Source: Mizuhopecten yessoensis
Lineage: Eukaryota
NCBI RefSeq assembly: GCF_002113885.1
Contig: NW_018408770.1
Span: 714,458 to 778,457 of the forward strand
Direction of reading: 5' to 3'
DNA: 64,000 nucleotides
Part shown: one piece after another, positions 1 through 63,212 of the stretch
How the letters are laid out: each line of letters begins with the position of its first letter
Numbering within the stretch: the stretch's first letter is position 1
Translations under genes and position numbers: made by a program
Notes under the pieces: generated by a model
What the model saw: only the letters and a program-made list of their open reading frames with translations
Told to the model about the DNA's origin: nothing
The model's database searches: none

Positions 1-1300
1 GTGACTTGTTCTGTAGGTAATCCTCCATGACCTTGTGATACAACACAGTGACTTGTTCTGTATGTAATCCTCCATGACCTTGTGATACAACACAGTGGCT
101 TGTTCTATAGGTAATCCGCCATGACCTTGTGATACGACACAGTGTCTTGTTCTCTAGGTAATCCTCATGACCTTGTGATACAACACAGTGACTTGTTCTC
201 TAGGTAATCCTCCATGACCTTGTGATACAACACGGTGACTTGTTCTGTAGGTAATCCTCCATGACCTTGTGATACAACACAGTGACTTGTTCTGTAGTTT
301 ATCCTCCATGACCTTGTGAAACAACATGGTGACTTGTTCTCTAGGTAATCCTCCATGACTTTGTGATAGGACACAGTGTCTTGTTCTCTAGGTAATCCTC
401 ATGACCTTGTGATACAACCCAGTGACTTGTTCTCTAGGTAGTCCTCCATGCCCTTGTGATACCCCACGGTGCCTTGTTCTCTAGGTAATCCTCTATGACC
501 TTGTGATACAACACGGTCACTTGTTCTCTAGGTAATCCTCATGACCTTGTGATACAACGCGGTGACTTGTTCTCTAGGTAGTCCTCCATGACCTTGTGAT
601 ACAGCACAGTGACTTGTTCTCTAGGGAATCCTCCATGACCTTGTGATTCAACACGGTGACTTTTTCTCTAGGTAATCCTCCATGGCCTTGTTATACAACA
701 CGGTGACTTGTTCCCTAGGTAATCCTCCATGACCTGGTGATACAACACGGTGACTTGTTCCCTAGGTAATCCTCCATGACCTAGTGATACAACACGGTGA
801 CTTGTGCTCTAGGTAATCCTCATGACCTTGTGATACCACACAGTGACTTATTTTGTAGGTAATCCTCCATGACCTGGTGATACAACACGGTGACTTGTTC
901 CCTAGGTAATCCTCCATGACCTTTTGATACAACACAGTGACTTGTTGTGTAGGTAATCCTCCATGACCTGGTGATACAACACGGTGACTTGTGCTCTAGG
1001 TAATCCTCATGACCTTGTGATACAACCCGGTGTCTTTTTCTCTAGGTAATCCTTCATGACCTTGTGATACAACACCGGGACTTGTTCTCTAGGTAAACCT
1101 CCATGACCTTGTGATACAGCACAGTGACTTGTTCTCTAGGGAATCCTCATCACCTTGTGATACCACACAGTGACTTGTTCTCTAGCTAATCCTCATGACC
1201 TTGTGATACCACACGGTGACTTGTTCTGTAGGTAATCCTCCATGACCTTGTGATACGACACAGTGTCTTATTCTGTAGGTAATCCTCCATGACCTTGTGA
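1..1300 (+). repeat. 47-bp (some 45-bp) minisatellite, at least 27 copies, built from the 3' splice site plus the first 22 nt of the PLAT exon at 1279
   Basis: Unit GTAATCCTCCATGACCTTGTGATACAACACAGTGACTTGTTCTCTAG. The last copy runs directly into the coding exon. The array continues upstream of the window. Confidence 0.95.
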
Positions 1301-4300: not shown

Positions 4301-7300
4301 GTGCACCTATTATAAAACATTGCATAAATCTTCTGTAAAACCATCTTATTTTAGAAATACAATTATTATATTTAAGCTAGCAGAGCTGCACTCAACAAAA
4401 AGTAAGAAAGACATAGGAAATTTGGCGAATTCTTTATTAAAATACATGTTTATTTTCATGGGAAAAAGGAAAAACACTTTTCCGTTTAGAGAATGTGTAG
4501 ATGTAATGTCTACACTTGTGTTGTGTCAAGTGAAATAGATGTTGTGGAAATGTAATTTGTAAATTTGTACTGTTGTGTATTTGTTTATACGTACTTGAAC
4601 CAGTGAGACATATGGCTCAAGGAATAATAAATAACTTAAAGTTGAAAAAACGGTTTATAACATCTTTCTGAATGAGTTAGGAGTCTCATTATAGTACTAC
4701 GAGAAAATTTTTGGTGGATCATTAGTTGCCACTTCGTCCGTCCTTCCGTCCGTCCTTTTCGTGTCCGGAGCATAACTTTACCCACATTTCAGCTAGGATC
4801 ATGAAACTTGGTGTGTACATCACTCATACAAAGACGATGTGCACTGGCCCAAATTAGGGGCCCACAGCCCCTTATTTACATAGTTGTTGCCCTTTGCTTA
4901 AATGTTGTGTCCGGGGCATAAATTTGCCTGCATTTAAGATAGGATCATGAAACTTTCACTTGTATGTACTTTAGTCATACTAAGGTGATGTGCACTGTGC
5001 ACAATTTAGGGCTCACAACCCCTTATTTACAGACGTATTGCCCTTTGTTGCCCTTTACTAAAATGTCGTGCCTGGAGCATAGCTTTGCCTGCATCAATTA
5101 AGGTTGGATCATGAAACTTGGTGTGTACATCAGTCATACTAAGGTGATGTGCACTGTACCAAATTAAGGGTCCACTACCCCATATTTACAGAGTTGTTGC
5201 CCTATGTTAAAACATTGTGTCGGGAGCATAACTTTTCCCGCAATTAAGATAGGATCATGAAACTTTCACTTGGTTTGTACATCAGTCATACTCAAGCAAT
5301 GTGCAGGGTACCAAATTCAGCACAGAGGTATTGCCCTTTTATAAAATATTGTGTCCTGAGCATAAGTCTTGAGTCCCTTTCGAAACAAAATTGAAATGCA
5401 CAGTGTAAAAAATTTAAAATTACCATTGAATTAATATTGGTACGTGTATATCATTGTAACACATATACAATACATGTAACAGTTAACAATTGTTTTTTCA
5501 TCAACAATGATATTTTCTTCTGATAATACATACAGAAACATAATACAAAATATTGTAATCTAATGACAGAAAAGGACAGTGACCGCATCTTTGTACAGAA
5601 CGGAAATTAGATCATTTTGTTTACTATTTTTAGCTACACTGTAATAGTAATCACTCTTTCTAAAAAATGTATGCTGGAGATCCATAATTTTATATTTGCT
5701 ACTCACTTCCTGTCTTCAGGTACCTGTAATATGAAACTACTGGAAATGGCACCAAATAGATTTTTTTGTATGATGCTTTTTTGATTTCGCACTTCCAATA
5801 TTTAATCTACTTTCTTTACCCGTGACCCTAACATCACAAATTTGACTCGTGTCCATAACTGGTGAATTCTGAACTCCTAACATTACATTAGTTGTTTTTT
5901 GGAGATAAATTGGGGAAAGTTATGTTACACTTTGACCTACTTCTAGACAGATTTTTGGATGAATCCATATGTTAAATATTTTACATAAATTTCTGTACAG
6001 TATATGAAGATCCATTTTACAGATTGAAATACCGGTATATATTTATTGAAAATAAGGAAATACAGTGGGTATTAATAAAGATTCTTTTAAGATATACAGC
6101 GGTATATCACAACATCGGGTAAATAAGTGCTGTATTATTGTACACTTCTGACTGACTTTGTGTTCTCTGCAGTGAACAAGTACGTTGTACAGACGACGAC
6201 CGGGAATGAGGCTGGGTCAGGGTCAGATGCTAATGTTTACATCAACCTGTTCGGCACACTGGGTGACTCCGGCAAACGTTACCTCAAAAACAACAGGGAA
6301 GGTGGGAACACCTTCGAGACAGGAAAGGTAAGGTGAAAGGCAAAGTAGGTTATAGTGATAACCTAACCTACTTAACCTACAAAATGATAGTCCATGGAGG
6401 TCATAGGTCAGGGAGGTCACCAAGACAGAGGTCTTTGAAAAAATGAGGTGTTGTCTGTTTAGCATTCATAGTATTTCATAACTTCACACTTTAATATCAA
6501 ATCATCCTGTAATTAAGTATTTTTTATAAAATAACTATTTTGATAATGATGCAACCTTGTGAATCATGGTCTCTTAAAGATGAAACCCCTTTTGGTTGTG
6601 GTCTGATAAAGATGCAACCTCTTGAGGTCAAGGTCTGATAGAGACGCACCCTTTTGAGGTCATGGTCTGATAAAAATGCAACCTCTTCAGATCATGGTCT
6701 GATAAAAATGCAACCTCTTCAGATCATGGTCTGATAAAAACGCACCCCTTTGAGGTCATTGTCTGATAAAAACGCACCCTTTTAAGGTCATGGTCTGATG
6801 AAGATGCACCCTTTTGAGGTCATGGTCTTATAAAGATGCAACCTATTCAGAATGGTCTGATAAAGATGCAACCTCTTGAGGTCATGATCTGATCAAAGTC
6901 ACAAAATGAAAGTTGAAATGGTCACTATCGAGATTCGAGCTCTTCCTGGCCACTCCAAATTGTTCATGATCTATGAAGATTGTATGCTAGTCCTCATTAT
7001 TACTTGTAGGTGGACACCTTTGTAGTGGAGGCTGTAGAACTTGGTCGCCTAGAGACCATCGTCATTGGTCATGATTCCTCAGGATCTGATCCTGCCTGGT
7101 TGGTGGAGAGGGTCACAGTTATGGAGTCTGACGATGCAGAAAAACGTTACTTGTTTCCATGTGGCAGGTAAGTTCTGAGTCCTATAGAATACATATAGAA
7201 GATAAATCAATCTTCGTTATTTATTAATTATTAGGCTCAACATTGTAGTGTATATATTCTATCAAACACAGACTTTAGGAAGTCATTGGCATAAGAAACA

Positions 7301-19500: not shown

Positions 19501-22500
19501 TCAACGAAAAATGTATGAAAATATCTAACAAATTAAAATTGTAAAAGTTTAAAAAATAGCACAGTCTGAATTGTTTATGCAATGAATTCAATTTCAGTTA
19601 AAAATATATGCTAGGAAATGCTGCTGAAATTAAAAACACAAAAAAAAAAAAAAAAAATCAGGATATTTGGCAAGGATGTGTTTAATAGGTTATCATAAGT
19701 ATATATTTAATTATGTAAATATGAGTAAAGAACTGCAATGAAACCATAACTATAATGAGATTATCAGCAAATATCAAATTATAAGTATCTTGACAAAACA
19801 ATACTTAGCTTAGAGCAAAACCTCACTTACAACTCAATTACATATTTATGTCCAACAAAAAGTAAAGTTTTCAAATTTTGCAGTTAAAATACAGTAAAAC
19901 CTTGTTATACTGCCACCATTTTCATGAGAAAAGTTGGCATTATAAGGGGGTTTGGCGACAAATTGAGGGAAAATGTATGAAGGCATTCTTATGAGAAAGA
20001 GAACAAATCATGGCAGTAAAGGAGGTCGCAAATTAAAAGGGGCATTATATCGAGGTTTTAATGTAGATAAACATTCATAGTGATAAATAGCTATTTGATG
20101 AACTGACAGGTCTGGTGAGTGTGGAGGAGTATTGAACAATGTTTAACAGTTGATGTACTGACAGGTCTGGTGAGTGTGGATCCGAAGGAGTATAGAACAA
20201 TGTTTAACAGTTGATGTACTGACAGGTCTGGTGAGTGTGGAGGAGTACAGAACAATGTTTAACAGTTGATGTACTGACAGGTCTGGTGAGTGTGGAGGAG
20301 TACAGAACAATGTTTAACAGTTGATGTACTGACAGGTCTGGTGAGTGTGGAGGAGTACAGAACAATGTTTAACAGTTGATGTACTGACAGGTCTGGTGAG
20401 TGTGGAGGAGTACAGAACAATGTTTAACAGTTGATGTACTGACAGGTCTGGTGAGTGTGGAGGAGTACAGAACAATGTTTAACAGTTGATGTACTGACAG
20501 GTCTGGTGAGTGTGGAGGAGTACAGAACAATGTTTAACAGTTGATGTACTGACAGGTCTGGTGAGTGTGGAGGAGTACAGAACAATGTTTAACAGTTGAT
20601 GTACTGACAGGTCTGGTGAGTGTGGAGGAGTACAGAACAATGTTTAACAGTTGATGTACTGACAGGTCTGGTGAGTGTGGAGGAGTACAGAACAATGTTT
20701 AACAGTTGATGTACTGACAGGTCTGGTGAGTGTGGAGGAGTACAGAACAATGTTTAACAGTTGATGTACTGACAGGTCTGGTGAGTGTGGAGGAGTACAG
20801 AACAATGTTTAACAGTTGATGTACTGACAGGTCTGGTGAGTGTGGAGGAGTACAGAACAATGTTTAACAGTTGATGTACTGACAGGTCTGGTGAGTGTGG
20901 AGGAGTACAGAACAATGTTTAACAGTTGATGTACTGACAGGTCTGGTGAGTGTGGAGGAGTACAGAACAATGTTTAACAGTTGATGTACTGACAGGTCTG
21001 GTGAGTGTGGAGGAGTACAGAACAATGTTTAACAGTTGATGTACTGACAGGTCTGGTGAGTGTGGAGGAGTACAGAACAATGTTTAACAGTTGATGTACT
21101 GACAGGTCTGGTGAGTGTGGAGGAGTACAGAACAATGTTTAACAGTTGATGTACTGACAGGTCTGGTGAGTGTGGAGGAGTACAGAACAATGTTTAACAG
21201 TTGATGTACTGACAGGTCTGGTGAGTGTGGAGGAGTACAGAACAATGTTTAACAGTTGATGTACTGACAGGTCTGGTGAGTGTGGAGGAGTACAGAACAA
21301 TGTTTAACAGTTGATGTACTGACAGGTCTGGTGAGTGTGGAGGAGTACAGAACAATGTTTAACAGTTGATGTACTGACAGGTCTGGTGAGTGTGGAGGAG
21401 TACAGAACAATGTTTAACAGTTGATGTACTGACAGGTCTGGTGAGTGTGGAGGAGTACAGAACAATGTTTAACAGTTGATGTACTGACAGGTCTGGTGAG
21501 TGTGGAGGAGTACAGAACAATGTTTAACAGTTGATGTACTGACAGGTCTGGTGAGTGTGGAGGAGTACAGAACAATGTTTAACAGTTGATGTACTGACAG
21601 GTCTGGTGAGTGTGGAGGAGTACAGAACAATGTTTAACAGTTGATGTACTGACAGGTCTGGTGAGTGTGGAGGAGTACAGAACAATGTTTAACAGTTGAT
21701 GTACTGACAGGTCTGGTGAGTGTGGAGGAGTACAGAACAATGTTTAACAGTTGATGTACTGACAGGTCTGGTGAGTGTGGAGGAGTACAGAACAATGTTT
21801 AACAGTTGATGTACTGACAGGTCTGGTGAGTGTGGAGGAGTATAGAACAATGTTTAACAGTTGATGTACTGACAGGTCTGGTGAGTGTGGAGGAGTACAG
21901 AACAATGTTTAACAGTTGATGTACTGACAGGTCTGGTGAGTGTGGAGGAGTATAGAACAATGTTTAACAGTTGATGTACTAACATGTCTGGTGAGTGTGA
22001 AGGAGTATAGAACAATGTTTAACAGTTGATGTACTGACAGGTCTGGAGAGTGTGGAGGAGTATAGAACAATGTTTAACAGTTGAGGTACTAACATGTCTG
22101 ACTAGATGTACTGACAGGTCTGGTGAGACTGTACACTATAATCTGAATGTTTAACAGTTGAGGTACTAACATGTCTGACTACAAATGGAGGTCGTCCGAC
22201 ACAGCTGGCACTGGATGGGCGCTTGCTTGTTCCTACTTGCTCTAGCTTCTTCCTGTACACTGGAGACGGAGACCTAGAACGAAAAACAGAGGCAACTGTT
22301 GGCTTGTGGTAGTTTTTCTGGTCCTCCTCAGCATCAACATCCACGTATGTCCTACAGGGAGGTAAAAAGAACAGCCCAGTCAGTTAGTTGAATGATGTAT
22401 ACAGGAAAGGAAAGCTGTATATCACCTCACAGAAGAAATACAGAAAAGAAAATGAAAGTGTATTTACATGCAGAAAATAATTACTATTTCTATTATCAGG

Positions 22501-27403: not shown

Positions 27404-30400
27404 ATGTCTGAGTACGATTCGGTATCTAGAAGTTCTCTGAACCTAAAAGGCGTATCGGATAAGAAAATTAATAAGTGAGGTTTAGTTATTTATTAATTTT
27501 ATGACTTAGTATTTAGGCGGACCGTTGTGCGACTCCAGGCATAGGGGACAGCAGTAAACAATCTGTAATCATTCCCTTCACAGATGTTTTATTTTGATAG
27601 AACAATACCAAATGAAATTTATCAATTTTTTTAGAGTGTCTAGATTTATATGTTTTATGTGTGACTTGGATTTGGTTGTTAACCATATTCATGATAACAG
27701 GCAATTTGCATACACACTCACTGACCAGAGGTAACCCATTTAACAATGTAGACCATAATGGACTAATCCAGATCAATGTATGGTAAAGTCTACTTAAGTT
27801 ACCTAGGGTTGAAAGGGTTAACATTAACAGTATTGTATATATCAGTGTGTCAAATCTGGGTTGTTTCGTCCTAAATCCTGTTTGCACTACATGTCGCTTC
27901 GCCCTAAATCCAGTTTGCCCAATAATGTTTCGCCCTCTATTGTAAATAAACATTTTCGAGTTATGACTTGGATATCATTCAAAATGTAACTTTAAAACCC
28001 TTACGTAACAATATAGTGTTGACAGAATCTATTTCAGATGGATTTTACGTGCAGATGATCTGATATGGTCGACCTCCTAGCTGCAATAATGTAGCAATGA
28101 CGACACATTTTTTTTATATGTTAGTACTATGGTCGACCATGTACGAATCATAAGAGTGTAATGACAAAAATGACTAAGAAAAATTTAGGAAAATTCAAAG
28201 GAGGCTGCAATTTTAGCCATACACAACTAAACTGGCTTGAAAAGTTTAACCATATAACTATTTAAGGGCGAAACAACCTAGTGCATAATGACACGGGGCA
28301 AACAGGATTGTGTGTCCAGCACCTGTGTTTAATTTGCATACTGTAATATATCAAACCACATCAACAGTAGTGTTATGTGACTAGTTCCTGAGACAGAAAT
28401 TACCAATAAATAGTAGAGTTATGAGTACACAACTAAAAAGTTGTTTACATGTCCAAAATAACATAGTCAGATATACCAGCTGACCATACATATTAAACAG
28501 TGACATGCCAAAGGTCTTTCCTGTAACATCATTTCATCATTGGATTCTGTGTTAATTAATTTTCTTTCAAAATGGTTTTTGTCACTTTGTTGGACATGTG
28601 CACCCAATTAGTATTATATGATGCCTGTCCATTAGATTTCGTAGACCATACTGTAAATTTTGTGATTTTCCTTTGGTATACCAATACATAATGGAAATGT
28701 ATTGGAGAAAAAACATGATTAAAAATTATATTTCAATTACCAGGTAATTTAAATAGATTTTATTTTACATGCGATACATGTAGTTTTGTTCACAGTAATA
28801 TTTTGCTATCAATAATTTCTAGGAAAAAGAAAAAGAAGGACAAAGAAAGGGAAGCTATGAAAATGTATGAACAGGTCTCTAACACAAAGTCTTCAGAGGA
28901 AGATGGAAAGAAGACAAAGCCGGTAGATAAACGGACAAAAGCAGAAAAAGCATTTGATGGAGCAAGAGAAAAAAGGGTAAATTTGCCTACCTTTATATTT
29001 TTATTTACAGTTTTAGATAACTGAAGTTTACTTATCACAAACAGATATGGTGTCCCAAATCTCTGCGGTTAAAATGGATGTTTCCATTGGGATCAGTCAA
29101 ACAGCTCAGCATTACCTGACTGCTTTACTGAAGACTTGACCAAATGTGTAAAATCCTAAATATTGTCATAAATGAGTCGTCTGCATGCAAAGCACCCTGT
29201 AAAAGATGAAGGAGAGCAGCCTGTGAATTATGATGTATGTCATCAATCCCTTTGTTTTACAATTTTGTAAGTTTATTTTGGTATAGTTATTTCTGTTCAT
29301 TGTTTACTACCTTCCTTTGCCTTTCATAATATAACCTACTAACAAAATTATGTTGGTGAATTTTATGATATATATTAATTTTAAAAAATGGTAAAATAAT
29401 TTTCATTCTTATTTTAGGAAGCAGAGCTCATCATAGATAAAGCCAGTAAAACTCACAAGGAACGTATCATGGTAAGTTTGACACACACAGGTGTGTATAG
29501 TTGTGTATCTAAACATTCAACCAGCACTTTCTTGAATTCTAACAACACCACTATATAACACAATATACCTTTTTTTCACTCACAGTATTCAAGTAAAGTA
29601 TATTGTTGTTAAAAAATCTAAGTTTTGAACACAAAAAATTCCAGCAATGTCAGAAATTGGTTTAACAACATTTTAGAAAAATAAATGGCGATGATAATAT
29701 CAAGTGATGACCTCATTACTGAAAATTTATAAAGGCAATGTCTGTTGTTCAAACAATTAATCTTTTATCAATAAAATTTGCTGAAAGACACACAGAAAAA
29801 TTAATCAACAAAACCATATATGATGGATGGAATGAGCAATACTTTCTGAATGAGGTAATTACACTATTATGTAACACTTCACATTATCTAATAATATAAA
29901 ACATGACAAACATGCATATCATCTGTTAAAATAACATTTTTAGGTCACCTGAGCTTTAGCTCAAGTGACCTATTGCTATCCGTTTTCGTCCGTCGTCGTC
30001 CGTCGTCCGTTAACATTTTACATTTCAAACTTAAAGTCAAGTTCTGCTGGGCCGATTGAACTGAAAGTTGGTAGGAATGATCGTCTCATGGTCCTGACAA
30101 AGTGTTGTTATTTTTCGGGTCGATCAGAAATCCAATATGGCCGCCACAGCCACCATTTTGAAAACCTATTTCAAACTTAAAGTCAAGTTCTGCTGGACCG
30201 ATTGAACTGAAAGTTGGTAGGAATGATCGCCTCATGGTCCTGACAAAGTGTTGTTATTTTTTGGGTCGATCAGAAATCCAATATGGCCACCACGGCCGCC
30301 ATTTTGAAAACCTATTTCAAACTTAAAGTCAAGTTCTGCTGGACCGATTGAACTTAAAGTTTGTAGGAATGATCGACTCATGGTCCTGACAAAGTGTTGT

Positions 30401-31097
30401 TATTTTTCAGGTCAATCATAAATCCAATATGGCCGCCACGGCCACCATTTTGAAAACATATTTCAAACTTAAAGTCAAGTTCTGCTAGGCCGATTGAACT
30501 GAAACTTTGTAGGAATGATTGACTCATGGTCCTGACAAAGTGTTGTTATTTTTCGGGTCGATCAGAAATCCAATATGGCCACCACGGCTGCCATTTTGGT
30601 AAACTATTTCAAACTTAAAGTAAAGATCTACTTGGCCGATTGAACTGAAACTTTGTAGGAATGATCGAATCATGGTCCTGACAAAGTGTTGTTATTTTTC
30701 GGGTCAATCAGAAATACAATTTGGCTGCCATGGCTGCTATTTTGCTACTAAGTTCTAATAGGCCGATCTCACTTAAAATTGGTCTAGGAATGATCAGCTC
30801 ATGGTCCTGACAAAGTTAAGTTAACATTATACTATTTTTTACTCAAATTGGTACATATTTCAACAACAAAAATAAATACTATAGACTCAGGTGACCGTTA
30901 AGGCCCATGAGCCTCTTGTTTTTTATAGTGCTATGAATATTTCTGTGTTTCTATTAGTGCTAAATCTTATGTGTAGTCTAGATATGATGTAGACGGCAAT
31001 CATTAAACTGTTCTTGTCTGTTTTCCAGTTATTCAACAGTCATTTGGATGCAATGACGGAACATTTTGATATTCCTAAAGTGAGTTGGACCAAGTGA
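27404..31097 (+). CDS. FAM32A: Protein FAM32A (spliceosome exon-ligation factor), 4 exons, 115 aa
   Basis: Exons 27404-27474, 28823-28976, 29418-29471 and 31029-31097(TGA). Translation MSEYDSVSRSSLNLKGV...KKKKKKDK...DKRTKAEKAF...KASKTHKERIM LFNSHLDAMTEHFDIPKVSWTK*, which has the diagnostic FAM32A C-terminus. Confidence 0.95.
27731..27821 (-). mobile_element. 91-bp TTAA-flanked miniature element (piggyBac-like ends), copy 1
   Basis: GTAA|CCC...GGG|TTAA. It is the reverse complement of 50516-50606; both copies give the spurious peptide SRLYHTxIWxSPLWST in the ORF track. Confidence 0.7.
27846..28323. mobile_element. Degenerate MITE-like element with inverted subterminal repeats
   Basis: Left GGTTGTTTCGTCCT...AATCCTGTTTGC versus right AGGGCGAAACAACC...GCAAACAGGATT. 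Confidence 0.45.
29937..30920 (+). mobile_element. Helentron-associated non-autonomous element (HINE-like) with ~5.5 x 146-bp internal repeats, in FAM32A intron 3
   Basis: 5' hairpin TAGGTCACCTGAGC-TTTA-GCTCAAGTGACCTA and a (CGTC)n tract. Units start at 30023, 30169, 30315, 30461 and 30607. The 3' end has the sub-TIR CTCAGGTGACC and the hairpin AGGCCCATGAGCCT followed by CTTGTT. Both flanks are T-runs. Confidence 0.85.
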
Positions 31098-34019: not shown

Positions 34020-37000
34020 ATGCCTAAAAAGTAAGTATGAAGCACAGTAATAATGTAAAGACACGTTTAAATGGTTTTGTCAACAATATCAGGGGTGGTT
34101 TGCTTATGAAATGTTGTAGGAGCATATTCTTCGTTGTCCAGCCGCCGGAGTGTCCGCTTGTTTTCATCTTTTCATTGGGGACACTAGGGTCTACTGAAGC
34201 GGGCCGACTTAACTCATGACTTAAACTGTCTTACCCTTTCATTTTCCGTACCGTGACTTTGGATTGGTGGGTCGTTGATAACGAAAGCATACCCGGTGCT
34301 CATTTGTCCCAATTCTCAGTGAAATACCTCAATCTATCAAAACGATAACCAGAGTGCAAGACCGGTTACTGGTGGATCAGCATTCAGTATAAGTTTAAGT
34401 GCACCATTTCCCTCATTAGCGGGTGGGATCTAAGGTGGATGCTAGAAGTAGGTAATCAATGACTTTATGAAATTAAAGCCTGGTTAACTCAATCTATATA
34501 TCAATGCCCAGTTCCACTTACGTGGCTTAGTATGTTAGTTTGTGTGGTCCATGTGATTTTTTCTTCCTGTTTAATATTGGATTAAAACATAATTTCAGAG
34601 GTAAAGGGAGGGTGCAGGTGGTAGAACCTGTGTATGGATCTGATGACGAGCGCCGCTATGAAAAGGATCCTGAGCCAGACCAAGATGATGATGACTACTT
34701 CTACGATGATGTTGACAAATTCCATATGCAAAAAGAAAAGGTAAAAAGGGATAAGTTAATTAACATGTTATGATAACACATTACCTGGTTGTTTCTTTAC
34801 ATCTGATTCATATGCAGTGAAGCATTTTACCTCATTATTGAGGATAGACCAAGTCACCATGTGATAGAGTCTGCTGTAATTTAAAATTGACAGTCTGAAT
34901 GACAAAATATGAGGAATTGCTTGTCAAATTTGATAGGTAAACGTCTAGATTGGATTATTTTTGTGTGGGTTTGATTGAGTGACAAGTGCTAGTATAGACC
35001 ACAATGTATTTTAATACTTAGGTAATTATACCAGTAATTTATTGATAGGTTTTGAAGTTTTACTTGAAACATTGTCTTTTAAAAAAACTAGCCATTTTTC
35101 ATCATCATTTGACATATTCCAACCCCATACCCACTAACTGGTGTTAAAATGTGTGCTGTTGATTTTCAGATGTTACTGGACCAAGGAGTGCAGGATGATG
35201 AAAACATGGACTCGGAGAGCGAGGTATTAAAAATAGATAACTTTTGACAGAGGACTGTCCTACTTGTTCTCATCTTCATGATCAGTTGCCCTGGTGATCA
35301 ACGGATAACATATCCATTTGTGCCATACAATAAATATAATACTGGGCATGCTGTCTAAACCGAACACCCCTGTGGCCACAAATAATTTGGCCAATTTGCG
35401 GAGAGTTCAAGATTGTAGAGAACCTACATGGTATACATTATCATTGTCTGAAATTTATTGGGCTAGTTTAATAAAAAAAAAAATCTGGCTTAGTTTAGAG
35501 AGAGAGTGTACTGTAGTCTACATTTAGACAATCCATTACATGGTAGATATGCAGCAGTCATTGACATTTCACAGTCAAAAATGTTTATTATAGTCCTTGC
35601 ATCTTTTTTGCAGTGGTATTGTAGTGAACTGTATGAATCTAATATTGTATGGAGGAGTTACACATGGTGTTGTAAGCAATAAATACACATTTTCTTGTTC
35701 CAATGTAATAGAACGAGGGTCTGTGGCATGTTAATTTAAAGAACAGTTACATATACTCCCTTGTGCCTATATAACCTAGCAAAGATATTTAATGTTATCA
35801 TTTGTGGAAGAGTTACAAGCTTCTAAGTCCTTGTGCTATAGGATGATTTTCCTTGGTGTTATAATTTACGGAATTACGGCAGAGTTCAATGTCCTTGTGC
35901 AATGGGCTACGGTTTTGTGATGTAGTGATTTTGGGAACAGTTAGATGTCTAGGTCCCTGTGTTTTGGGATTAAGTTCCGCAGATTAAAAGTTAGGGAATA
36001 ATTACTGATTTCTAAGTCCCTGTGTTATAGGGTGAGGTTCTCGGTGTTGGTGGTGACAGCGATGATGACCTCTTGAGTGATGATGACCTCAAAGCCTACA
36101 AGAAACAGTTGCGGAGGATAAAACTGAACCGTAAGAAGAGTGACATGGGCAGTGACCTGGAAGACCAGGATGAGGAAGGTAACTACAGGTCCATCAGTTT
36201 GTGGTGTGGATCATCATATACATGATACAGTATCTATTCCAGGTGACATTCCAGCTGAAACAGTTTAAGAATTGGCTTCAAGGAGATAGCAAGTTTTTAG
36301 TTCAGGTATATTTTCTAAGATGAAGTGGAGGAAAATAGGCGTGGTCAAGCAATAGTCCAACCCCAATTTCCATAAAACTTATCAAAAACTCTCTTTATAT
36401 ATTTTGAATAATGCATGCCTTGTCTTGTGTACGTAGCAATAAGAAGGCGTCGGGTCATGAGAACCTCACTTCTCACCAGATTTGCTCTGCCATTTCTTTG
36501 AAGGTGTTACAGAAACTGCTGAGGGAATTAGTTTTGTTTTCAGACCGACACAAGGCTTATAGAGGACCGGTTAAGTCGGGGCAAAAATGAGAATATAGCC
36601 AATTTAGGTTACTTTGAAAATAGAGTAGATACAGTTGAGGTGTAATATCTAATAGTAATCAGTGTGTGCCAATGGTATTAATAGATCTTCGATATACTTT
36701 ATTTTGTTGGAAAATATTTTTTAAGGTTCATTATTCAATCATTTAAACACTTGTTTTGTTACTTACAGGGGAGCCTGATCACACGACGTACGGCAAGAAG
36801 GTGCAAGACTATTACAACGCAGATTTCAGTGACGACAATGTTGGTAAGTAACCACTTTCTGTATCTATTGTTAACATAGATGAGGATGAACATACAGATG
36901 ACCAGGTCTCATTTAATTCAAGAATCATTAGCTCAATGCCATGTTAATGGTGTATCTAAATCACTGATATTGTGATTTATCTTTTTAATTCAGTAACCAA

Positions 37001-40000
37001 AATAACTTTATAACCTATTTTGTAGACCTCTCTGGGTCCGAGGATGAGGAAGGAGCGGCCGCCTTGGAGGAAAAAGAGGCATTAGCTCTACAGAAACGTA
37101 TCAACGCTGAACTGGATGATCAGGACTTTGGACTTGATATGTTCAAGGTATGTAGGGTGATAATAGTGTGACATGGTTGTACACTGTACTATAAACAGGT
37201 CCTTCACTGGCCCATCAATGGTGTACACTCTCATCATAAGTATGACCTTATCTTGTGCGAAGACCTCAACCTAACTAACACACCCATGTAGACATGCAGA
37301 AAGACAACTGAGTTTTGAATTATTTTGAAATAAGAATGTAATACTGAAATTAAAATGGGTGCTCTGGACACCCTTATTATAAGCATGACATTAATTTCTG
37401 GAATAACAGACTTATATGTACATTATATAAACGCATACAGATAATTGGTTATAAATTGTTTAGAATTCATAATTTAATACTGAAGTATAAGGGTGCTACA
37501 TGTTAAATAGGAGCCTTAAATTCAATGCGTCTGTTATGTATATTCAAAGACAGAAAGTGGAGTTTGTATTTCTTGCTGTTACAGGAAAAGAAGCTTGTGG
37601 AAGCTGAAAATGAGGAGGAAAAGATCACACAAGACTTGACAAAGCTGTCCAGGAAGGAGAAATTACAGGTATGTAATTTACTATACATTAAAGGTACATT
37701 AGAACTATTGAAGTATACAGGAAGATGGTTATATTTCTGTGTATGAACATTTTCTTCATCAAGCTGATCAGTAAACACTACATCAAATATTTGTTTTACA
37801 GCTTTTGAAGAAGGAGTCGCCAGAAATGCTGACTTTGATTGATGACTATAAATCCAAGGTATGTACTTCCTGTGAAAACACTCAGTGACGAGATCTCCTA
37901 ATTAGATATCCAAATTGTTTTCACCTTTAATCTTGAAAGATGTGTTTGATTATTTTTTGGCAAGATTTTGCTGTTGAATATATATATGCAAGTGTTATTG
38001 GTATATTTCCAGTATCATAGACATTCTCTAAACTTTACATGCAGTATCACCTGCGATACAGATTTCAATAAAGTGGACATTTTTGTAAAGCGTTAAAGAA
38101 AGAAATATATGTCAATGAAAATGTATTGTTTATCTGGACTTGATGACCCTGATGTTTTATTCAGGAACAGTAGTGTCACGATTTACAAGGTTTGACAGTT
38201 GTATGTGTATGTAACCTTCAGTAGATGGCAGAGATGAGAGACATGTTCATGTCACTGTTGACACTTCAGTAATCTGTGCATGCTACCCTTATATATATAT
38301 ATAGCAGGAGTGAGTGATGTCCTTATTCCACTGTTGAGACTGTATAAAGTTTTTTTACTCTTGGGTAGATGACTGAGGTGAGGGACATCTTTATGTCACT
38401 GTTGAGACTGTACACTATAATCTGTGTATGTTACTCCTGGGTAGATGACTGAGGCGAGGGACATCTTTATGTCACTGTTGAGACTGTACACTATAATCTG
38501 TGTATGTTACTCCTGGGTAGATGACTGAGGTGAGGGACATCTTTATGTCGCTGTTGAGACTATACTATAATCTGTGTATGTTACTCCTGTGTAGATGACG
38601 GAGGTGAGGGACATCTTTATGTCGCTGTTGAGACTATACTATAATCTGTGTATGTTACTCCTGTGTAGATGACTGAGGGGAGGGACATCTTTATGTCACT
38701 GTTGAGACTATACTATAATCTGTGTATGTTACTCCTGTGTAGATGACTGAGGCGAGGGACATCTTTATGTCACTGTTGAGACTGTACACTATAATCTGTG
38801 TATGTTACTCCTGGGTAGATGACTGAGGTGAGGGACATATTTATGTCACTGTTGAGACTGTATACTATAATCTGTGTATGTTACTCCTGGGTAGATGACT
38901 GAGGTGAGGGACATCTTTATGTCACAGTTGAGACTGTATACTGTAATCTGTGTATGTTACTCCTGTGTAGATGACCGAGGTGAGGGACATCTTTATGTCA
39001 CTGTTGAGACTGTATAATGTAATCTGTGTATGTTACTCCTGTGTAGATGACTGAGGCGAGGGACATCTTTATGTCACTGTTGAGACTGTACACTATAATC
39101 TGTGTATGTTACTCCTGGGTAGATGACTGAGGTGAGGGACATCTTTATGTCGCTGTTGAGACTATACTATAATCTGTGTATGTTACTCCTGTGTAGATGG
39201 CTGAGGTGAGGGACATCTTTATGTCACTGTTGAGACTATATACTATAATCTGTGTATGTTACTCCTGTGTAGATGTCTGAGGTGAGGGACATCTTTATGT
39301 CACTGTTCAGACTGTATACTATAATCTGTGTATGTTACTCCTGGGTAGATGACTGAGGTGAGGGACATGTTTATGTCACTGTTGAGACTCTATACTGAAA
39401 TCTGTGTATGTTACTCCTGTGTAGATGACTGAGGTGAGGGACATCTTTATGCCACTGTTGAGACTGGTGAGAGAGGGAAAGATCCAGGGAAAAGCTGGAG
39501 ACTATGTGGAGACTAAAACCAAACTTCACCTAAAGTAAGCTTTATTAATATTTAGAAATATATAAAACAATTTGTCGTAATCTATTCTTCTTTAAAATTT
39601 CATTTTTGTGTATATATCCATATATAAGGGACAAAGCAATTTGTAACTGATTGGTTGTTCTATGTACATATAATTATAGGCTGAATTAGTCTATAAAATA
39701 TACAATCAATGTAAGTAAAATATTCAGATCTTAAAGAAATTACTCTGGACACAAAAAGGTATTCAGCCTTTCTTATTATTATATAGCTATATAAAAGTAA
39801 TGATAGAATACATTCAGCGTATTGTGTTTGAAGGTGATTAACAGCCATACTGTGTGTACACAAATTCATTGATTTCACAAGTACAATACTTGTCACAACA
39901 GTGTGATAGTTTCATAAATATTGTTAAATTAGTACATTTGTGCCTACTTCCAGTGAGCAGTAACAGAGGTTTGAGTCTGAAAAGGAATAGTTCTAATCTG

Positions 40001-43000
40001 TTAATTTTCTCTCTCCACAGTTATTGTACCAATATCAGTTTCTACATGATGATGAAATCAAAACAAATTGCAGTTCATAACCATCCGGTGATCAAGCGCC
40101 TCGTACAGTACCGCAATGTAAGTTACCATATGAAAAACTGAATGATTAAATTGTTTTTTAACTGTTTGATTTAGTTTGTGTGAGCAGTTTGTTTTTTAGT
40201 TAAATGAGAACAATTTGATTAAAGCTATTTATGAGCAGATTGATGCAGTTATCTAAGTGAACTGTTTTATTCAATTTTGTTAGAACAGTTTAAATTTAAA
40301 TGTGTGAACAATATGATTAAGTTTTGTATAGAAAGTTTGATTTAGTTGTATATAAGCATTAACACATACCATAAGTAAATGTGTAAGTGAACTGAATTGC
40401 TCAACAGAGACCAAATATCCTAGCAGGTAGAATCTCCATAAAGAGTTCAGATGGGTCTGTGTATGGTTCTGGTTTGACTTGTCAAATTTTGCCTGTCCAT
40501 TTACAGAAAAATTGATAAATAGGAGTATTGCTGAAGTGTTACTGGTGGAGTTCAATAATTAACTGTCAACGCATTGCACAGAGTCCAACAGTCATACCCA
40601 TATTATAGTCCAGACATTGATGTTAGTGTCAAACAGTTGTACCAAATATGCACATTCTTATCATTCAAGCATTTGACAGTTATTAAGTCCCAAATTAATT
40701 ATCCAGGCTTATTTAACCATTATCTTTCTGTCGACAGTTGATGAAGGAGCTGGAGCCATTAGACAACCAATTGAAGGAAGAAATGACAGACATTTTGGAT
40801 CGGTTGAAGAAAGGAGAGGAAGTAGAATTTTCCTCGGGGGAGGAGAAGAAGCAGGGCTTTGTCAGGTACTTTATTAAAACTAGAAAACATAATACCATAT
40901 ACTAGGTATATCAAGTAATCAGAAATGCATTGATTTCACAAAAGTTTGAAAAACCCCCACAATACACAAAGTTGTGTTTATGTTGACATCTGTAAAAGTT
41001 AGGCCAGTAAATGCACAGTTTTTTAGAGAAGTGTTAAACTGGAGCAAACCTGGAAAATTTGCTGTAATTCTGTAAAATTTAAAAACCTCCTACATTTTGC
41101 TCAGACCACCAAGTTAGTGCTTTCTGAATACATTCTGTCCCAAGAAACAAAAAGGCCTGATATTTAACAATGATAATGAATTCACATACTTTAAATTTCT
41201 TGTATTACAGGCGTAAATCTGTCAAATCCTCCAGACAGAGAGTGGAAAATAAAAAACTGAGTCAGCTGGTGTCAGAATCCGATGACGACGAGGAGGACGA
41301 TGATGTTGAACCGAAAGCAAAGGTTTGTTGTGGTGCAGAACTTGTTGTTCCTTACGTGCAATAACTAATTATAACACCACCACAAAAGTTTTTGGTATCT
41401 GACATGTGATATTACTCATTGTGATGCCGTTTTGATGATGTCCCAGATTCATGGGTGGAGTTTTCCTGTCTAAGCACTCAGATAATGTGTAATTCAAAAT
41501 GCCTGGGATGAGTTTATGATTAAAACAATATCTTAACCTTTCTTTTCTGAAATTTCAAGCTCATTATTAATACATGTATATAACTTTTATGTATTAAAAT
41601 GGGAAATTGTTTGAGATTGTTAGAGCATTGTGTAATATTTAAACCCGGCAAATAAACAAAATGGTGAAGTTTTGACATCTTGAAATTAATTGGTTTAGAT
41701 TATATATTAGAATCAAATGTCATGTAACCAAACAAATGTCTGAAGATAAATGGCATTCAAGATATCCGAGTTGTAAACGCTCTACATACCAGCACTGGTT
41801 ATTGCACTGTAACTGTATATTGTGATCTTGTTTCCCTAGAATTCTGGGAGTGGAAGGTACGAGACAGAGGAGGAGAAGGCTGCCCTAGAGTACTACAGGA
41901 TGATGAAGGGAGCAGGGTCCAAGGATAACGAGGAAATGGACAGGTATGCACAGGTGTACAGGTATATGATCAGGACATTTGTTAGGATAAGTAAATCATT
42001 TGATGACAATTGTGAGCAAATGTTATACGAGAGGAAATATTATTTGAACTAAGGAAAATAGCAATTTTAGTTAACACTGTCCACCTTTCTTTAATGTAAG
42101 CTAAAACTTAGTCAAATAATCTTAATCCTGCATTTGTGTGGTTCCAGTGGTGCTGAGGAGAGGGAAGAGGCTCCAGAGGTAGACAATGAAATGGAGGAAG
42201 GAGAGGAGGAGGAGGAAGGCAAACGAGCCATCACTTTTCAGGTACATGTTTCATAAATTACTCTCCCTAAATTATCACAAACAAATTTAAATCAAACAAG
42301 TGTTTTGTGGAAAAGAACACTATAATATATTCTTTTTGAACAGTTCAAATAATTTTTTAAATGTTTTATTAAAGTTGTTGGCAGAGAAATATTTTCAAAT
42401 TCAGTTTAAATTATAGTTACCTGGGAAAAGTTGACTGTTAGATAACGACGACAACAATTTAATGGGTTCTGTATACATTAATATTGATTTAAGAAAAGGA
42501 GACATTGTTGAAAAGTTAAAAAAAACTTTCATGCATTTATATGATTGATTTGTGTTTAAGATTGCTAAGAACAAGGGCATGACTCCCAAGAGAAAGAAGG
42601 AGCAGAGGAATCCACGTGTGAAAAACAAGCTGAAGTACAGGAAGGCTAAGATCAGGAGGAAAGGACAGGTAAGTTGTGAAACAAGACACAGATCAACACT
42701 TGTGAATATCACATGACCATTCAGACAGGGTGAATCAGTTATTGATACGTGTTGAAATTTAATTTTACAATTCTATCATTAATTTAATTAATTACCTTCT
42801 TTCTAATGGTCCATTTAGACATTTAAATCTGTTGTCAAGACAATATCAGTCTCGGTAAACAAATGTATTTTTTGACAAATTTACCCGACATGCTGAATAC
42901 AAACTTTGATATGTAGTTCAATCTAGATTTAATGGTGTCAATCTCCACAGAGGTACAACTTATTCTATACGGGACATATGTTAATACTTACATTACTGTC

Positions 43001-43101
43001 TGTTTCAGGTCCGTGAGGCCAGGACAGAGATGGCCCGGTACGGAGGAGAGATCTCGGGGATCAGGGCTGGTGTGAAGAGAGGCATCAAGATGAAAGTCTA
43101 A
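34020..43101 (+). CDS. UTP3: Something about silencing protein 10 (SAS10/UTP3, SSU processome), 16 exons, ~512 aa
   Basis: Exons 34020-34030, 34599-34740, 35170-35223, 36031-36178, 36769-36843, 37026-37147, 37585-37668, 37802-37858, 39425-39534, 40021-40117, 40738-40865, 41211-41322, 41840-41943, 42148-42241, 42561-42668 and 43009-43101(TAA); 1539 nt. Motifs: LKKESPEMLTLIDD, NYCTNISFYMMMK, HNHPVIKRLVQYR, and the Sas10 C-terminus KRAITFQIAKNKGMTPKRKKEQRNPRVK...YGGEISGIRAGVKRGIK. The 11-nt first exon is the least certain. Confidence 0.93.
35745..36050 (+). repeat. Highly decayed ~63-bp tandem array overlapping the acceptor of UTP3 exon 4
   Basis: TCTAAGTCCTTGTGCTATAGGATGATTTTCCTTGGTGTT (35822) versus the real TCTAAGTCCCTGTGTTATAG|GGTGAGGTTCTCGGTGTT (36011). 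Intermediate copies lie at ~35887 and ~35948, with a trace at ~35755. Confidence 0.7.
38200..39466 (+). repeat. 76-bp (some 74-bp) minisatellite built from the acceptor plus the first 42 nt of UTP3 exon 9; 14 well-preserved decoy copies, 2 decayed copies, then the real exon
   Basis: Unit ATGACTGAGGTGAGGGACATCTTTATGTCACTGTTGAGACTGTACACTATAATCTGTGTATGTTACTCCTGKGTAG. Copies start at 38369, 38445, 38521, 38595, 38669, 38743, 38819, 38895, 38971, 39047, 39123, 39197, 39273 and 39349; the true exon starts at 39425. Confidence 0.96.
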
Positions 43102-51440: not shown

Positions 51441-51600
51441 TATATCCACCTACAGAAGGCTGGAGCTGATGTGCCATTTCTATAGAGGCACATATATCCA
51501 CCCTACAGAAGTCTGGAGCTGATGTGCCATTTCTCTAGAGGCACATATATCCACCTACAGAAGGCTGGAGCTGATGCGCCATTTCTCTAGAGGCACATAT
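51441..51600. repeat. ~52-bp tandem repeat x3 in the presumed Src42A 3' UTR
   Basis: Unit ATATCCACCTACAGAAGGCTGGAGCTGATGTGCCATTTCTCTAGAGGCACAT. Confidence 0.85.
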
Positions 51601-52008: not shown

Positions 52009-57222
<5,214 letters not shown>

Positions 57223-63118: not shown

Positions 63119-63212
63119 TTTACGACATTTACCGATGTTTATATTTTATGACATTTACCGATGTTTATATTTTACGACATTTACCGATGTTTATATTTTA
63201 TGACATTTACCG
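63119..63212. repeat. 26-bp tandem repeat x3.5
   Basis: Unit TTTAYGACATTTACCGATGTTTATAT. Confidence 0.85.

What the first reader, a model, noticed from the sequence alone, without database searches (positions are those of the whole stretch)
38200..39534. Fourteen intact decoy acceptors in front of an essential UTP3 exon, and a private branch-point-like variant only before the real one
Seen: every unit ends ...TTACTCCTGKGTAG|ATG, nearly identical to the true acceptor. Use of a 76-nt decoy gives MTEVRDIFMSLLRL...VDD* (premature TGA). Only the unit feeding the real exon has TACTGAAAT (CTGA at 39395-39398, A at -27) instead of the ACTATAAT/ACTGTAAT-type sequence in the decoys. Most units also contain GAG|GTGAGG nine bases after the AG, so a decoy could splice as a 9-nt in-frame micro-exon (MTE) followed by a 65-67-nt GT-AG intron. 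The most distal copies (38225, ~38305) are the most decayed. Inference: the correct site is chosen by exon definition and/or this branch point, with micro-exon splicing as a frame-preserving escape.
Basis: partly seen in the sequence, partly recalled or inferred. Interest (0 to 1): 0.7.

Follow-up and report, generated by a model that had tools for sequence, protein, structure and literature searches.

The report
Splice-acceptor "mirage" repeat in scallop UTP3
In a scallop ribosome-assembly gene, a 76-base piece spanning an intron end and the next exon's start is repeated 14 extra times, yet every RNA read examined is spliced to the last, correct copy, so it is likely a tolerated example of a repeat type already known from lancelets.

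Summary
The array is real: 14 near-intact copies (74-76 nt: 42 nt exon start, 32-34 nt intron end) precede exon 9 of Yesso scallop UTP3/SAS10, and each would give a premature stop. RNA from 6 runs in 4 studies uses only the true exon: 28 of 28 reads carry its private base, 47 of 47 junction ends join the upstream exon directly with no extra MTE, and decoy-only sequence had zero depth. The micro-exon escape is not supported; NMD could hide some decoy use. The private TACTGAA is real and the best branch-like match in the array, but such matches are as common in background, and another animal's contigs showed only the decoy type (weak hint). It is a 'mirage' minisatellite (PMC3087553), the acceptor-side mirror of human F7; the scan noted the same kind in other genomes and twice in this one. 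Likely mechanism: cross-exon pairing with the one true donor. Side results: such arrays straddle 14 of 147 kinase donors but 2 of 140 acceptors, and a 22-nt piece of this array recurs only in the neighbouring SPATA6 intron array.

The parts
34020..43101 (+). UTP3/SAS10 gene, 16 coding exons
   Evidence: Exon model identical to P0001 at 512 of 512 residues, all introns GT-AG; Pfam PF04000 and PF09368
37802..37858 (+). Upstream exon 8 and its donor (phase 0)
   Evidence: RNA joints and loose ends
38225..38368 (+). Two old, decayed copies of the unit (38225 keeps AG|ATG; ~38301-38368 does not)
   Evidence: 33 of 76 differences; genome search 72-81% identity; RNA depth 0 over 37880-38351
38369..39424 (+). 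14 near-intact units of 74-76 nt: 42 (or 40) nt exon start plus 34 nt intron end; decoy acceptors at 38369, 38445, 38521, 38595, 38669, 38743, 38819, 38895, 38971, 39047, 39123, 39197, 39273, 39349
   Evidence: each leads to a stop at codon 26-41; RNA depth 0 on the decoy-only parts laid, 38411-38444 and 39330-39382
39393..39399 (+). Branch-point-like TACTGAA, A at -27, only in the unit feeding the true exon
   Evidence: 6 of 7 match, decoys 4-5 of 7; only intronic singleton of that unit; use as branch point untested
39425..39534 (+). True exon 9 (110 nt): first 42 nt shared with the decoys, private C at 39452, purine-rich unique 3' part (0.69), donor at 39534
   Evidence: 28 of 28 reads read C; 47 upstream junction ends and 45 downstream joints; 36 of 36 residues match P0001; purine share
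39434..39439 (+). Internal GT at +10 of the true exon (the proposed micro-exon donor), unused in the reads laid
   Evidence: Scores at the 52nd percentile of called scallop donors; no joint listed from it
22124..22145 (+). 22-nt piece identical to the unit-to-unit junction of the UTP3 array, inside the last unit of the 55-bp array in the SPATA6-like gene's intron
   Evidence: 5 exact matches in the whole genome: 4 in the UTP3 array and this one

Best explanation
This is a minisatellite made of the intron 8/exon 9 boundary of scallop UTP3, repeated 14 extra times, and the RNA examined is spliced only to the last copy, likely because that acceptor lies nearest the exon's single true donor and next to its unique purine-rich half (exon definition). 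Shown: the anatomy, the premature stops, the exclusive use of the last copy in steady-state RNA. Inferred: the array arose by a local tandem duplication across the boundary and grew by slippage or unequal exchange, with older copies decaying at the far edge; the decoys are likely weak (acceptor score 3rd-13th percentile) and followed by intron-type sequence, so they fail to be defined as exons; a 9-nt exon and 65-67-nt introns are likely too short here; the few errors would be removed by NMD. The TACTGAA variant may add a bias but is likely not the deciding element. The array is likely tolerated, not adaptive.
For: Unit = 42 nt exon + 34 nt intron, edge copies most decayed. 28 of 28 reads over unit position +28 carry the true exon's C; joint from 37858 in 27 reads with no inserted letters listed; depth 0 on the decoy intron part and on the decayed copies. 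47 of 47 loose ends before the true exon are the upstream exon, agreement 1; 45 joints 39534-40021 and none listed from internal GTs. 7 decoys are identical to the true acceptor from -20 to +3, so the acceptor sequence itself cannot choose. First-come scanning from the upstream donor would pick the first decoy, which is not seen. GA-type triplets 0.24 per nt in the unique exon half against 0.03-0.06 in the matching decoy sequence. Same repeat type at 16 of 287 called kinase splice sites in this genome and before another exon in this window (1-1300). Lancelet mirages are reported not to disturb splicing (PMC3087553, PMC3902484, passages). Cross-exon proximity is reported for human long introns (PMC9225289, abstract and section 9).
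Against: Exon definition was not tested. PMC9225289 section 9 finds only a reduced, not reversed, upstream preference for human 3' sites under exon definition, so proximity alone may not explain complete exclusion of 14 upstream copies. The +9 GT of the next unit scores better (52nd percentile) than the true donor (26th), so 85-nt pseudo-exons look possible on paper and yet are unseen. The true unit's one private intronic change is the 1 of 96 single changes that lifts a GT-type unit to a 6 of 7 branch match, which favours a role for the branch point. Read depth is modest: 0 of 57 distinct junction reads gives an upper bound near 5%, and stop-carrying products would be depleted by NMD. Acceptor-side arrays are rarer than donor-side ones (2 of 140 vs 14 of 147; none vs 8 with 5 or more copies), so they may not be fully harmless.
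Confidence: 0.72

Rival explanations
1. The private TACTGAA branch point is what marks the true acceptor; the array could expand only because its copies lack it (or the true unit gained it as compensation).
For: Only unit with a 6 of 7 match, A at -27; the unit's only intronic singleton, and 1 of 96 possible single changes does this (a post-hoc test).
Against: Matches of 6 or more occur at 48 of 140 called acceptors and 44 of 140 background windows, and 92 of 140 acceptors have less. The decoys carry TAAT at -25, which fits the T-R-A-Y motif (99 vs 82 of 140) that the true unit does not. 9 of 14 units compared carry singletons. In run X15 the only array contig is one 76-word loop of decoy type at depth 7.58 beside flanks of 9.06 and 10, and no contig with the variant was laid; this hints at a short allele without it, but the tool warns that depth is no copy number and holes prove nothing.
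Confidence: 0.17
2. The array is an unproductive-splicing (poison acceptor) control: a regulated share of transcripts uses decoys and is destroyed by NMD, tuning UTP3 dose.
For: All 15 upstream copies give a stop far upstream of later junctions; NMD would hide the products; a ribosome-biogenesis gene is a plausible target (general knowledge).
Against: No decoy read in 6 runs of 4 studies; frameshifts and stops are expected from any intron-containing unit; copies decay and carry scattered singletons; the array seems to differ between animals.
Confidence: 0.07
3. Decoys are rescued as 9-nt in-frame micro-exons (extra MTE).
For: 10 of 14 decoys offer an open 9-nt AG-GT cassette with a donor of median strength.
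Against: 0 of 47 junction ends (agreement 1) and no inserted letters listed among 27 joints, though the product should be stable; none of the 9 full-length homologs aligned has an insertion at this place; apart from one 29-nt miscall, the shortest of 93 called intron gaps is 103 nt; the GT comes from the coding sequence and 4 of 14 copies lost it.
Confidence: 0.04

Closest known systems
Amphioxus 'mirage' minisatellites (Adh3, globins BflGb6 and BflGb9, troponin C, PGBD5); PMC3087553 and PMC3902484, passages read; the original Adh3 paper (Canestro et al. 2002) is cited there but was not held
   Same: Tandem copies of an intron/exon boundary, many with intact splice signals; BflGb6 has the same intron-end plus exon-start unit; normal splicing reported undisturbed; edge units differ from inner ones.
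   Different: A bivalve, not a cephalochordate; 14 copies of 74-76 nt against 3-6 copies of 150-160 nt in BflGb6; a housekeeping gene; a branch-like variant confined to the used copy; length instability here only hinted.
Human F7 intron 7 37-bp VNTR (PMC1557585, abstract and outline read)
   Same: Identical splice sites in tandem, only the one abutting the unique exon is used, the others stay silent.
   Different: F7 repeats a donor and the first copy is used, explained by 5'-3' scanning; here an acceptor is repeated and the last copy is used, which scanning from the upstream donor would not give.
Cross-exon proximity rule of exon definition (PMC9225289, abstract and section 9 read)
   Same: With long flanking introns (1566 and 486 nt here) the sites closest across the exon are favoured.
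   Different: A statistical tendency in human alternative sites, weak for 3' sites; here the choice looks all-or-none among near-identical copies.

Membership tests
Mirage minisatellite (PMC3087553) | Tandem unit spans an intron/exon boundary of the host gene | tested here: met
   42 nt exon + 34 nt intron per unit; boundary confirmed by RNA
Mirage minisatellite (PMC3087553) | Minisatellite-size unit (10-160 bp reported) | tested here: met
   74-76 bp
Mirage minisatellite (PMC3087553) | Many copies keep the splice signal | tested here: met
   14 of 14 intact copies keep AG; 13 of 14 keep the 14-nt acceptor motif
Mirage minisatellite (PMC3087553) | Regular splicing is not disturbed | tested here: met
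   28 of 28 and 47 of 47 reads use the true exon; steady-state RNA only, NMD not blocked
Mirage minisatellite (PMC3087553) | Homogenised inner copies, divergent edge copies | tested here: met
   Inner units differ from the true unit at 3-7 of 76 places, edge units at 18 and 33
Mirage minisatellite (PMC3087553) | Length differs between haplotypes | tested here: inconclusive
   X15 loop contig at near single-copy depth and matching no window segment at the same 4 differences; contig depth is not a copy number
Mirage minisatellite (PMC3087553) | Somatic instability | not testable with these tools
   Needs single-molecule PCR or long reads from tissues of one animal
F7-type donor VNTR (PMC1557585) | Repeated site is a 5' splice site and the first copy is used | tested here: not met
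   Repeated site is an acceptor and the last copy is used; works like its mirror image
Functional micro-exon | Spliced-in 3-27 nt exon seen in RNA (size range recalled) | tested here: not met
   0 of 47 junction ends; no inserted letters listed; tissues of the runs unknown
Poison (NMD-coupled) splice choice | Alternative site gives a premature stop | tested here: met
   15 of 15 copies
Poison (NMD-coupled) splice choice | Product accumulates when NMD is blocked | not testable with these tools
   No NMD-blocked run was identifiable among the 24 listed

The most novel reading that the evidence does not exclude
Acceptor-side mirages are purged in scallops while donor-side ones are tolerated (2 of 140 vs 14 of 147), and a long acceptor array survives in a housekeeping gene only because the used copy gained a compensating branch point by one base change; the locus would then be a natural allelic series (array length by branch-point state) for how a spliceosome picks one of 15 near-identical 3' splice sites, in a genome where short pieces are also copied between neighbouring genes' arrays.
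Probability: 0.15. Interest if true: 0.55.

Novelty: new member of a known kind. Interest (0 to 1): 0.24.

Why it matters
As it stands it is an ordinary, tolerated repeat of a described kind, and shows that a scallop splices accurately past 14 look-alike acceptors. It is a convenient test bed for 3' splice-site choice, the side for which the human F7 work gives no answer, and the donor/acceptor asymmetry seen in a small survey is a testable sign of selection on such arrays. No paper describing these arrays in scallops or other molluscs turned up in six searches (listings and abstract starts only).

Tried and rejected
Mobile-element origin of the unit: the 186-nt query finds only this locus. 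Other haplotypes in metagenome contigs: 0 matches. No indexed holder was on record as RNA ('no RNA holder listed'); raw-read runs of the same species label were laid instead. Reads were laid on the two flanks (each with one to one-and-a-half units), not on the whole array, so which decoy a rare read would use, and the array length in other animals, stay open. In-frame read-through of any decoy to the true donor, or of multi-unit pseudo-exons: none is open except the 9-nt cassettes. Survey limits: splice sites were called by my own simple scores around HMM hits, not by RNA; 60 loci were taken from the 135 kinase rows (exon-sized hits; rows at contig edges, near-duplicates and second hits at one locus were left out); the control positions include unlabelled exons, which may raise the 4% control; 6 of the 14 donor cases have fewer than 5 copies and some are loose. 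The exon behind the 47-bp array (1279-1410) got no Pfam hit itself; a later exon (7010-7165) hit PLAT. The original Adh3 mirage paper could not be read. No supplements were read; those of PMC3087553 show the BflGb6 unit alignment and may bear on whether branch-like variants are confined to the used copy there.

Full report
What is there. The window is G000:C5443:714458-778457 of a 988-Mb genome. A 16-exon model at 34020-43101 (+) has GT-AG introns throughout and translates to a protein identical at 512 of 512 residues to P0001, which its source names SAS10-like of Mizuhopecten yessoensis. P0001's longest contig has the same length as C5443, so it is probably the annotation of this same DNA and not independent support. 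Pfam Sas10_Utp3 and Sas10 hit neighbouring exons. That UTP3/SAS10 is an essential small-subunit processome protein is recalled knowledge from yeast, not tested here.

The array. TRF reports period 76, 14.7 copies, 94% matches at 38355-39466. Each unit is the first 42 nt of exon 9 followed by the last 34 nt of intron 8; four units are 2 nt shorter. There are 14 intact AG|ATG decoys, the true acceptor at 39425, a decayed AG|ATG copy at 38225 and a second decayed copy near 38301-38368. Inner units differ from the true unit at 3-7 of 76 places, the edge units at 18 and 33. Seven decoys equal the true acceptor from -20 to +3. All 15 upstream copies would end in a stop at codon 16-41; the only open in-frame cassettes are ten 9-nt ones. 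The unit occurs nowhere else in the genome.

RNA test. Of 24 runs listed, six raw RNA runs from four studies and one contig set were laid, 18-24% of each raw run being read. One search used 36700-38444 (upstream exons plus one unit), so that every read leaving exon 8 lands on that unit and one base tells its origin: 28 of 28 reads (5, 18, 1, 4) read C, the true exon's private base, and none T; 27 reads made the joint with no inserted or in-between letters listed (listing needs 3 reads per run); depth was 0 on the unit's intron part and on both decayed copies; 18 loose ends in X22 went on into the true exon. One search used 39330-40900: 47 loose ends (21, 8, 18) before the true exon were all the end of exon 8, agreement 1, which leaves no room for an extra 9 nt; depth on the last decoy was 0; 45 reads joined 39534 to 40021 and no joint was listed from the GTs after 39433 or 39466. 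Counting X22 once, 57 junction reads give a 95% upper bound of about 5% for other products, optimistic because reads are not fully independent. This bound is fair for the micro-exon, which should be stable, but not for stop-carrying decoy products, which NMD would deplete. Tissues of the runs are not known to me.

Branch point. TACTGAA with A at -27 is confirmed and is the only 6 of 7 match to the recalled consensus TACTRAY among the 16 acceptors; decoys reach 4-5. Only the A is private: states at -28/-27 are AT 11, GT 2, GA 1, and the older decayed copy reads GTAAT at the same place, which suggests that the A is a derived single change (inference). For it: this is the 1 of 96 single changes that lifts a GT-type unit to 6 (post-hoc). 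Against it: 48 of 140 called scallop acceptors and 44 of 140 background windows reach 6 or more, so the score barely separates real sites; the decoys' TAAT at -25 fits T-R-A-Y (99 vs 82 of 140) while the true unit does not; 9 of 14 units have singletons. In contig set X15, which covers the introns evenly and so is DNA-like, the only array contig is a 106-nt loop (exactly one unit of 31-letter words) with the decoy-type bases, at depth 7.58 beside flanks of 9.06 and 10, and no contig with the variant was laid. Decoy-type paths in the window's array have mean word multiplicity 1.3-4.2, and none matches that loop at the same 4 differences. This hints at a much shorter allele whose true acceptor lacks the variant, but there is a hole at 39467-39510, contigs drop variants, and the tool says depth is no copy number. 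I count it as a weak hint only.

Micro-exon. The +9 GT scores at the 52nd percentile of 147 called donors, above the true donor (26th), but it is part of the E-V-R codons, is present in the true exon, and was not used. Four of 14 decoys have lost it. None of 9 full-length homologs (P0001 and 8 others; P0002 is a fragment misaligned here) has an insertion at this place. Apart from one 29-nt miscall, the shortest of 93 gaps between called exons is 103 nt, above the 65-67 nt needed.

How common. In 60 loci around exon-sized kinase hits (588 kb, 15% in tandem repeats) I called 140 acceptors and 147 donors on 153 exon hits. An array starting just inside the exon lies at 14 of 147 donors (control 4.2%, p = 0.004); an array ending just inside the exon lies at 2 of 140 acceptors (control 4.4%, no excess); donor vs acceptor Fisher p = 0.003; with 5 or more copies 8 vs 0. 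So boundary-spanning arrays are common here on the donor side, and a 14-copy acceptor array is in the rarer class, though not unique: the 47-bp array at 1-1300 has 20 matching acceptor copies in the window before a 44-codon open exon-like stretch ending in a GT donor, and continues upstream across an assembly gap. The sample is one gene family and the sites are my own calls.

Mechanism. Shown: near-identical acceptors, exclusive use of the last. Inferred: first-come scanning from the upstream donor is excluded, since it would take a decoy. The last copy is the one nearest the only donor used, and is followed by a purine-rich exon half (purines 0.69; GA-type triplets 0.24 per nt) where decoys are followed by intron sequence (0.44; 0.03-0.06). 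All copies are weak acceptors (3rd-13th percentile), so they likely need help from across the exon. PMC9225289 (abstract, section 9) reports that human sites flanked by long introns pair by cross-exon proximity, though for 3' sites the upstream preference is only reduced. I put exon definition at about 0.7, a deciding branch point at about 0.17, regulated poison use at 0.07 and micro-exon rescue at 0.04.

What is known. [quoted passage not shown] PMC1557585 (abstract and outline) is the donor-side human F7 case. The array meets five of the seven mirage features listed, one is inconclusive and one untestable. The name mirage reached me through earlier AI notes of this scan, which record the same kind in eight other findings, and one search lists two donor-side cases in this genome; I checked the papers but not those loci. 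Six literature searches listed no paper on such arrays in scallops or other molluscs; subscription journals are mostly not covered.

Side finding. A 22-nt word spanning the unit-to-unit junction of this array occurs five times in the genome: four in the array and once 16 kb away at 22124-22145, where it replaces an equal-length stretch in the last unit of the 55-bp array beside a donor of the SPATA6-like gene. Because the word includes UTP3 coding sequence joined to UTP3 intron, the copy likely went from UTP3 to the neighbour, by template switching at short shared ends, unless it is an assembly error. Short isolated exact patches of 20-44 nt were found within 8 of 60 survey loci against 54 of 1770 locus pairs, so local copying of this size may be a habit of this genome.

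Verdict. Observation confirmed; interpretation partly supported; a new member of a known kind; interest 0.24.

Noticed in passing
window 22124-22145 and 38403-39102: A 22-nt piece of the UTP3 array's unit junction sits in the last unit of the 55-bp array of the neighbouring SPATA6-like intron and nowhere else in the genome: local template switching between two genes' arrays, or an assembly error.
   Followed up: partly
window 1-1300 (and L104 4003-4462): 47-bp array of the same acceptor-side anatomy, 20 matching acceptor copies in the window, before an exon-like stretch at 1279-1410 of a PLAT/LH2-domain gene; it continues upstream across a 5.4-kb N gap. Not tested with RNA.
   Followed up: partly
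window 20095-22181 (-): 55/77-bp array, 36 copies at 98% match, behind a likely donor of a SPATA6-like exon (22102-22383 frame); copies carry a donor-like GTCAGT where the edge has GTTAGT.
   Followed up: partly
window 51441-51600 (-) and 63119-63212 (-): Short arrays (52 bp x 3, 26 bp x 3.6) whose ends look like an acceptor and a donor on the minus strand; exons not confirmed.
   Followed up: no
L044-L103: Arrays straddle 14 of 147 called kinase donors but 2 of 140 acceptors; L084 has two donor arrays of about 28 copies each. Possible stronger purging of acceptor-side arrays.
   Followed up: partly
window 40770-40836: Run X22 differs from the window at five places in exon 11 in all its reads, while X20, X21 and X15 do not: a divergent allele or population.
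   Followed up: no
window 30022-30734 and 53215-54608: Two unrelated-looking 146-bp arrays, of a size typical of bivalve satellite or transposon-internal repeats (recalled).
   Followed up: no
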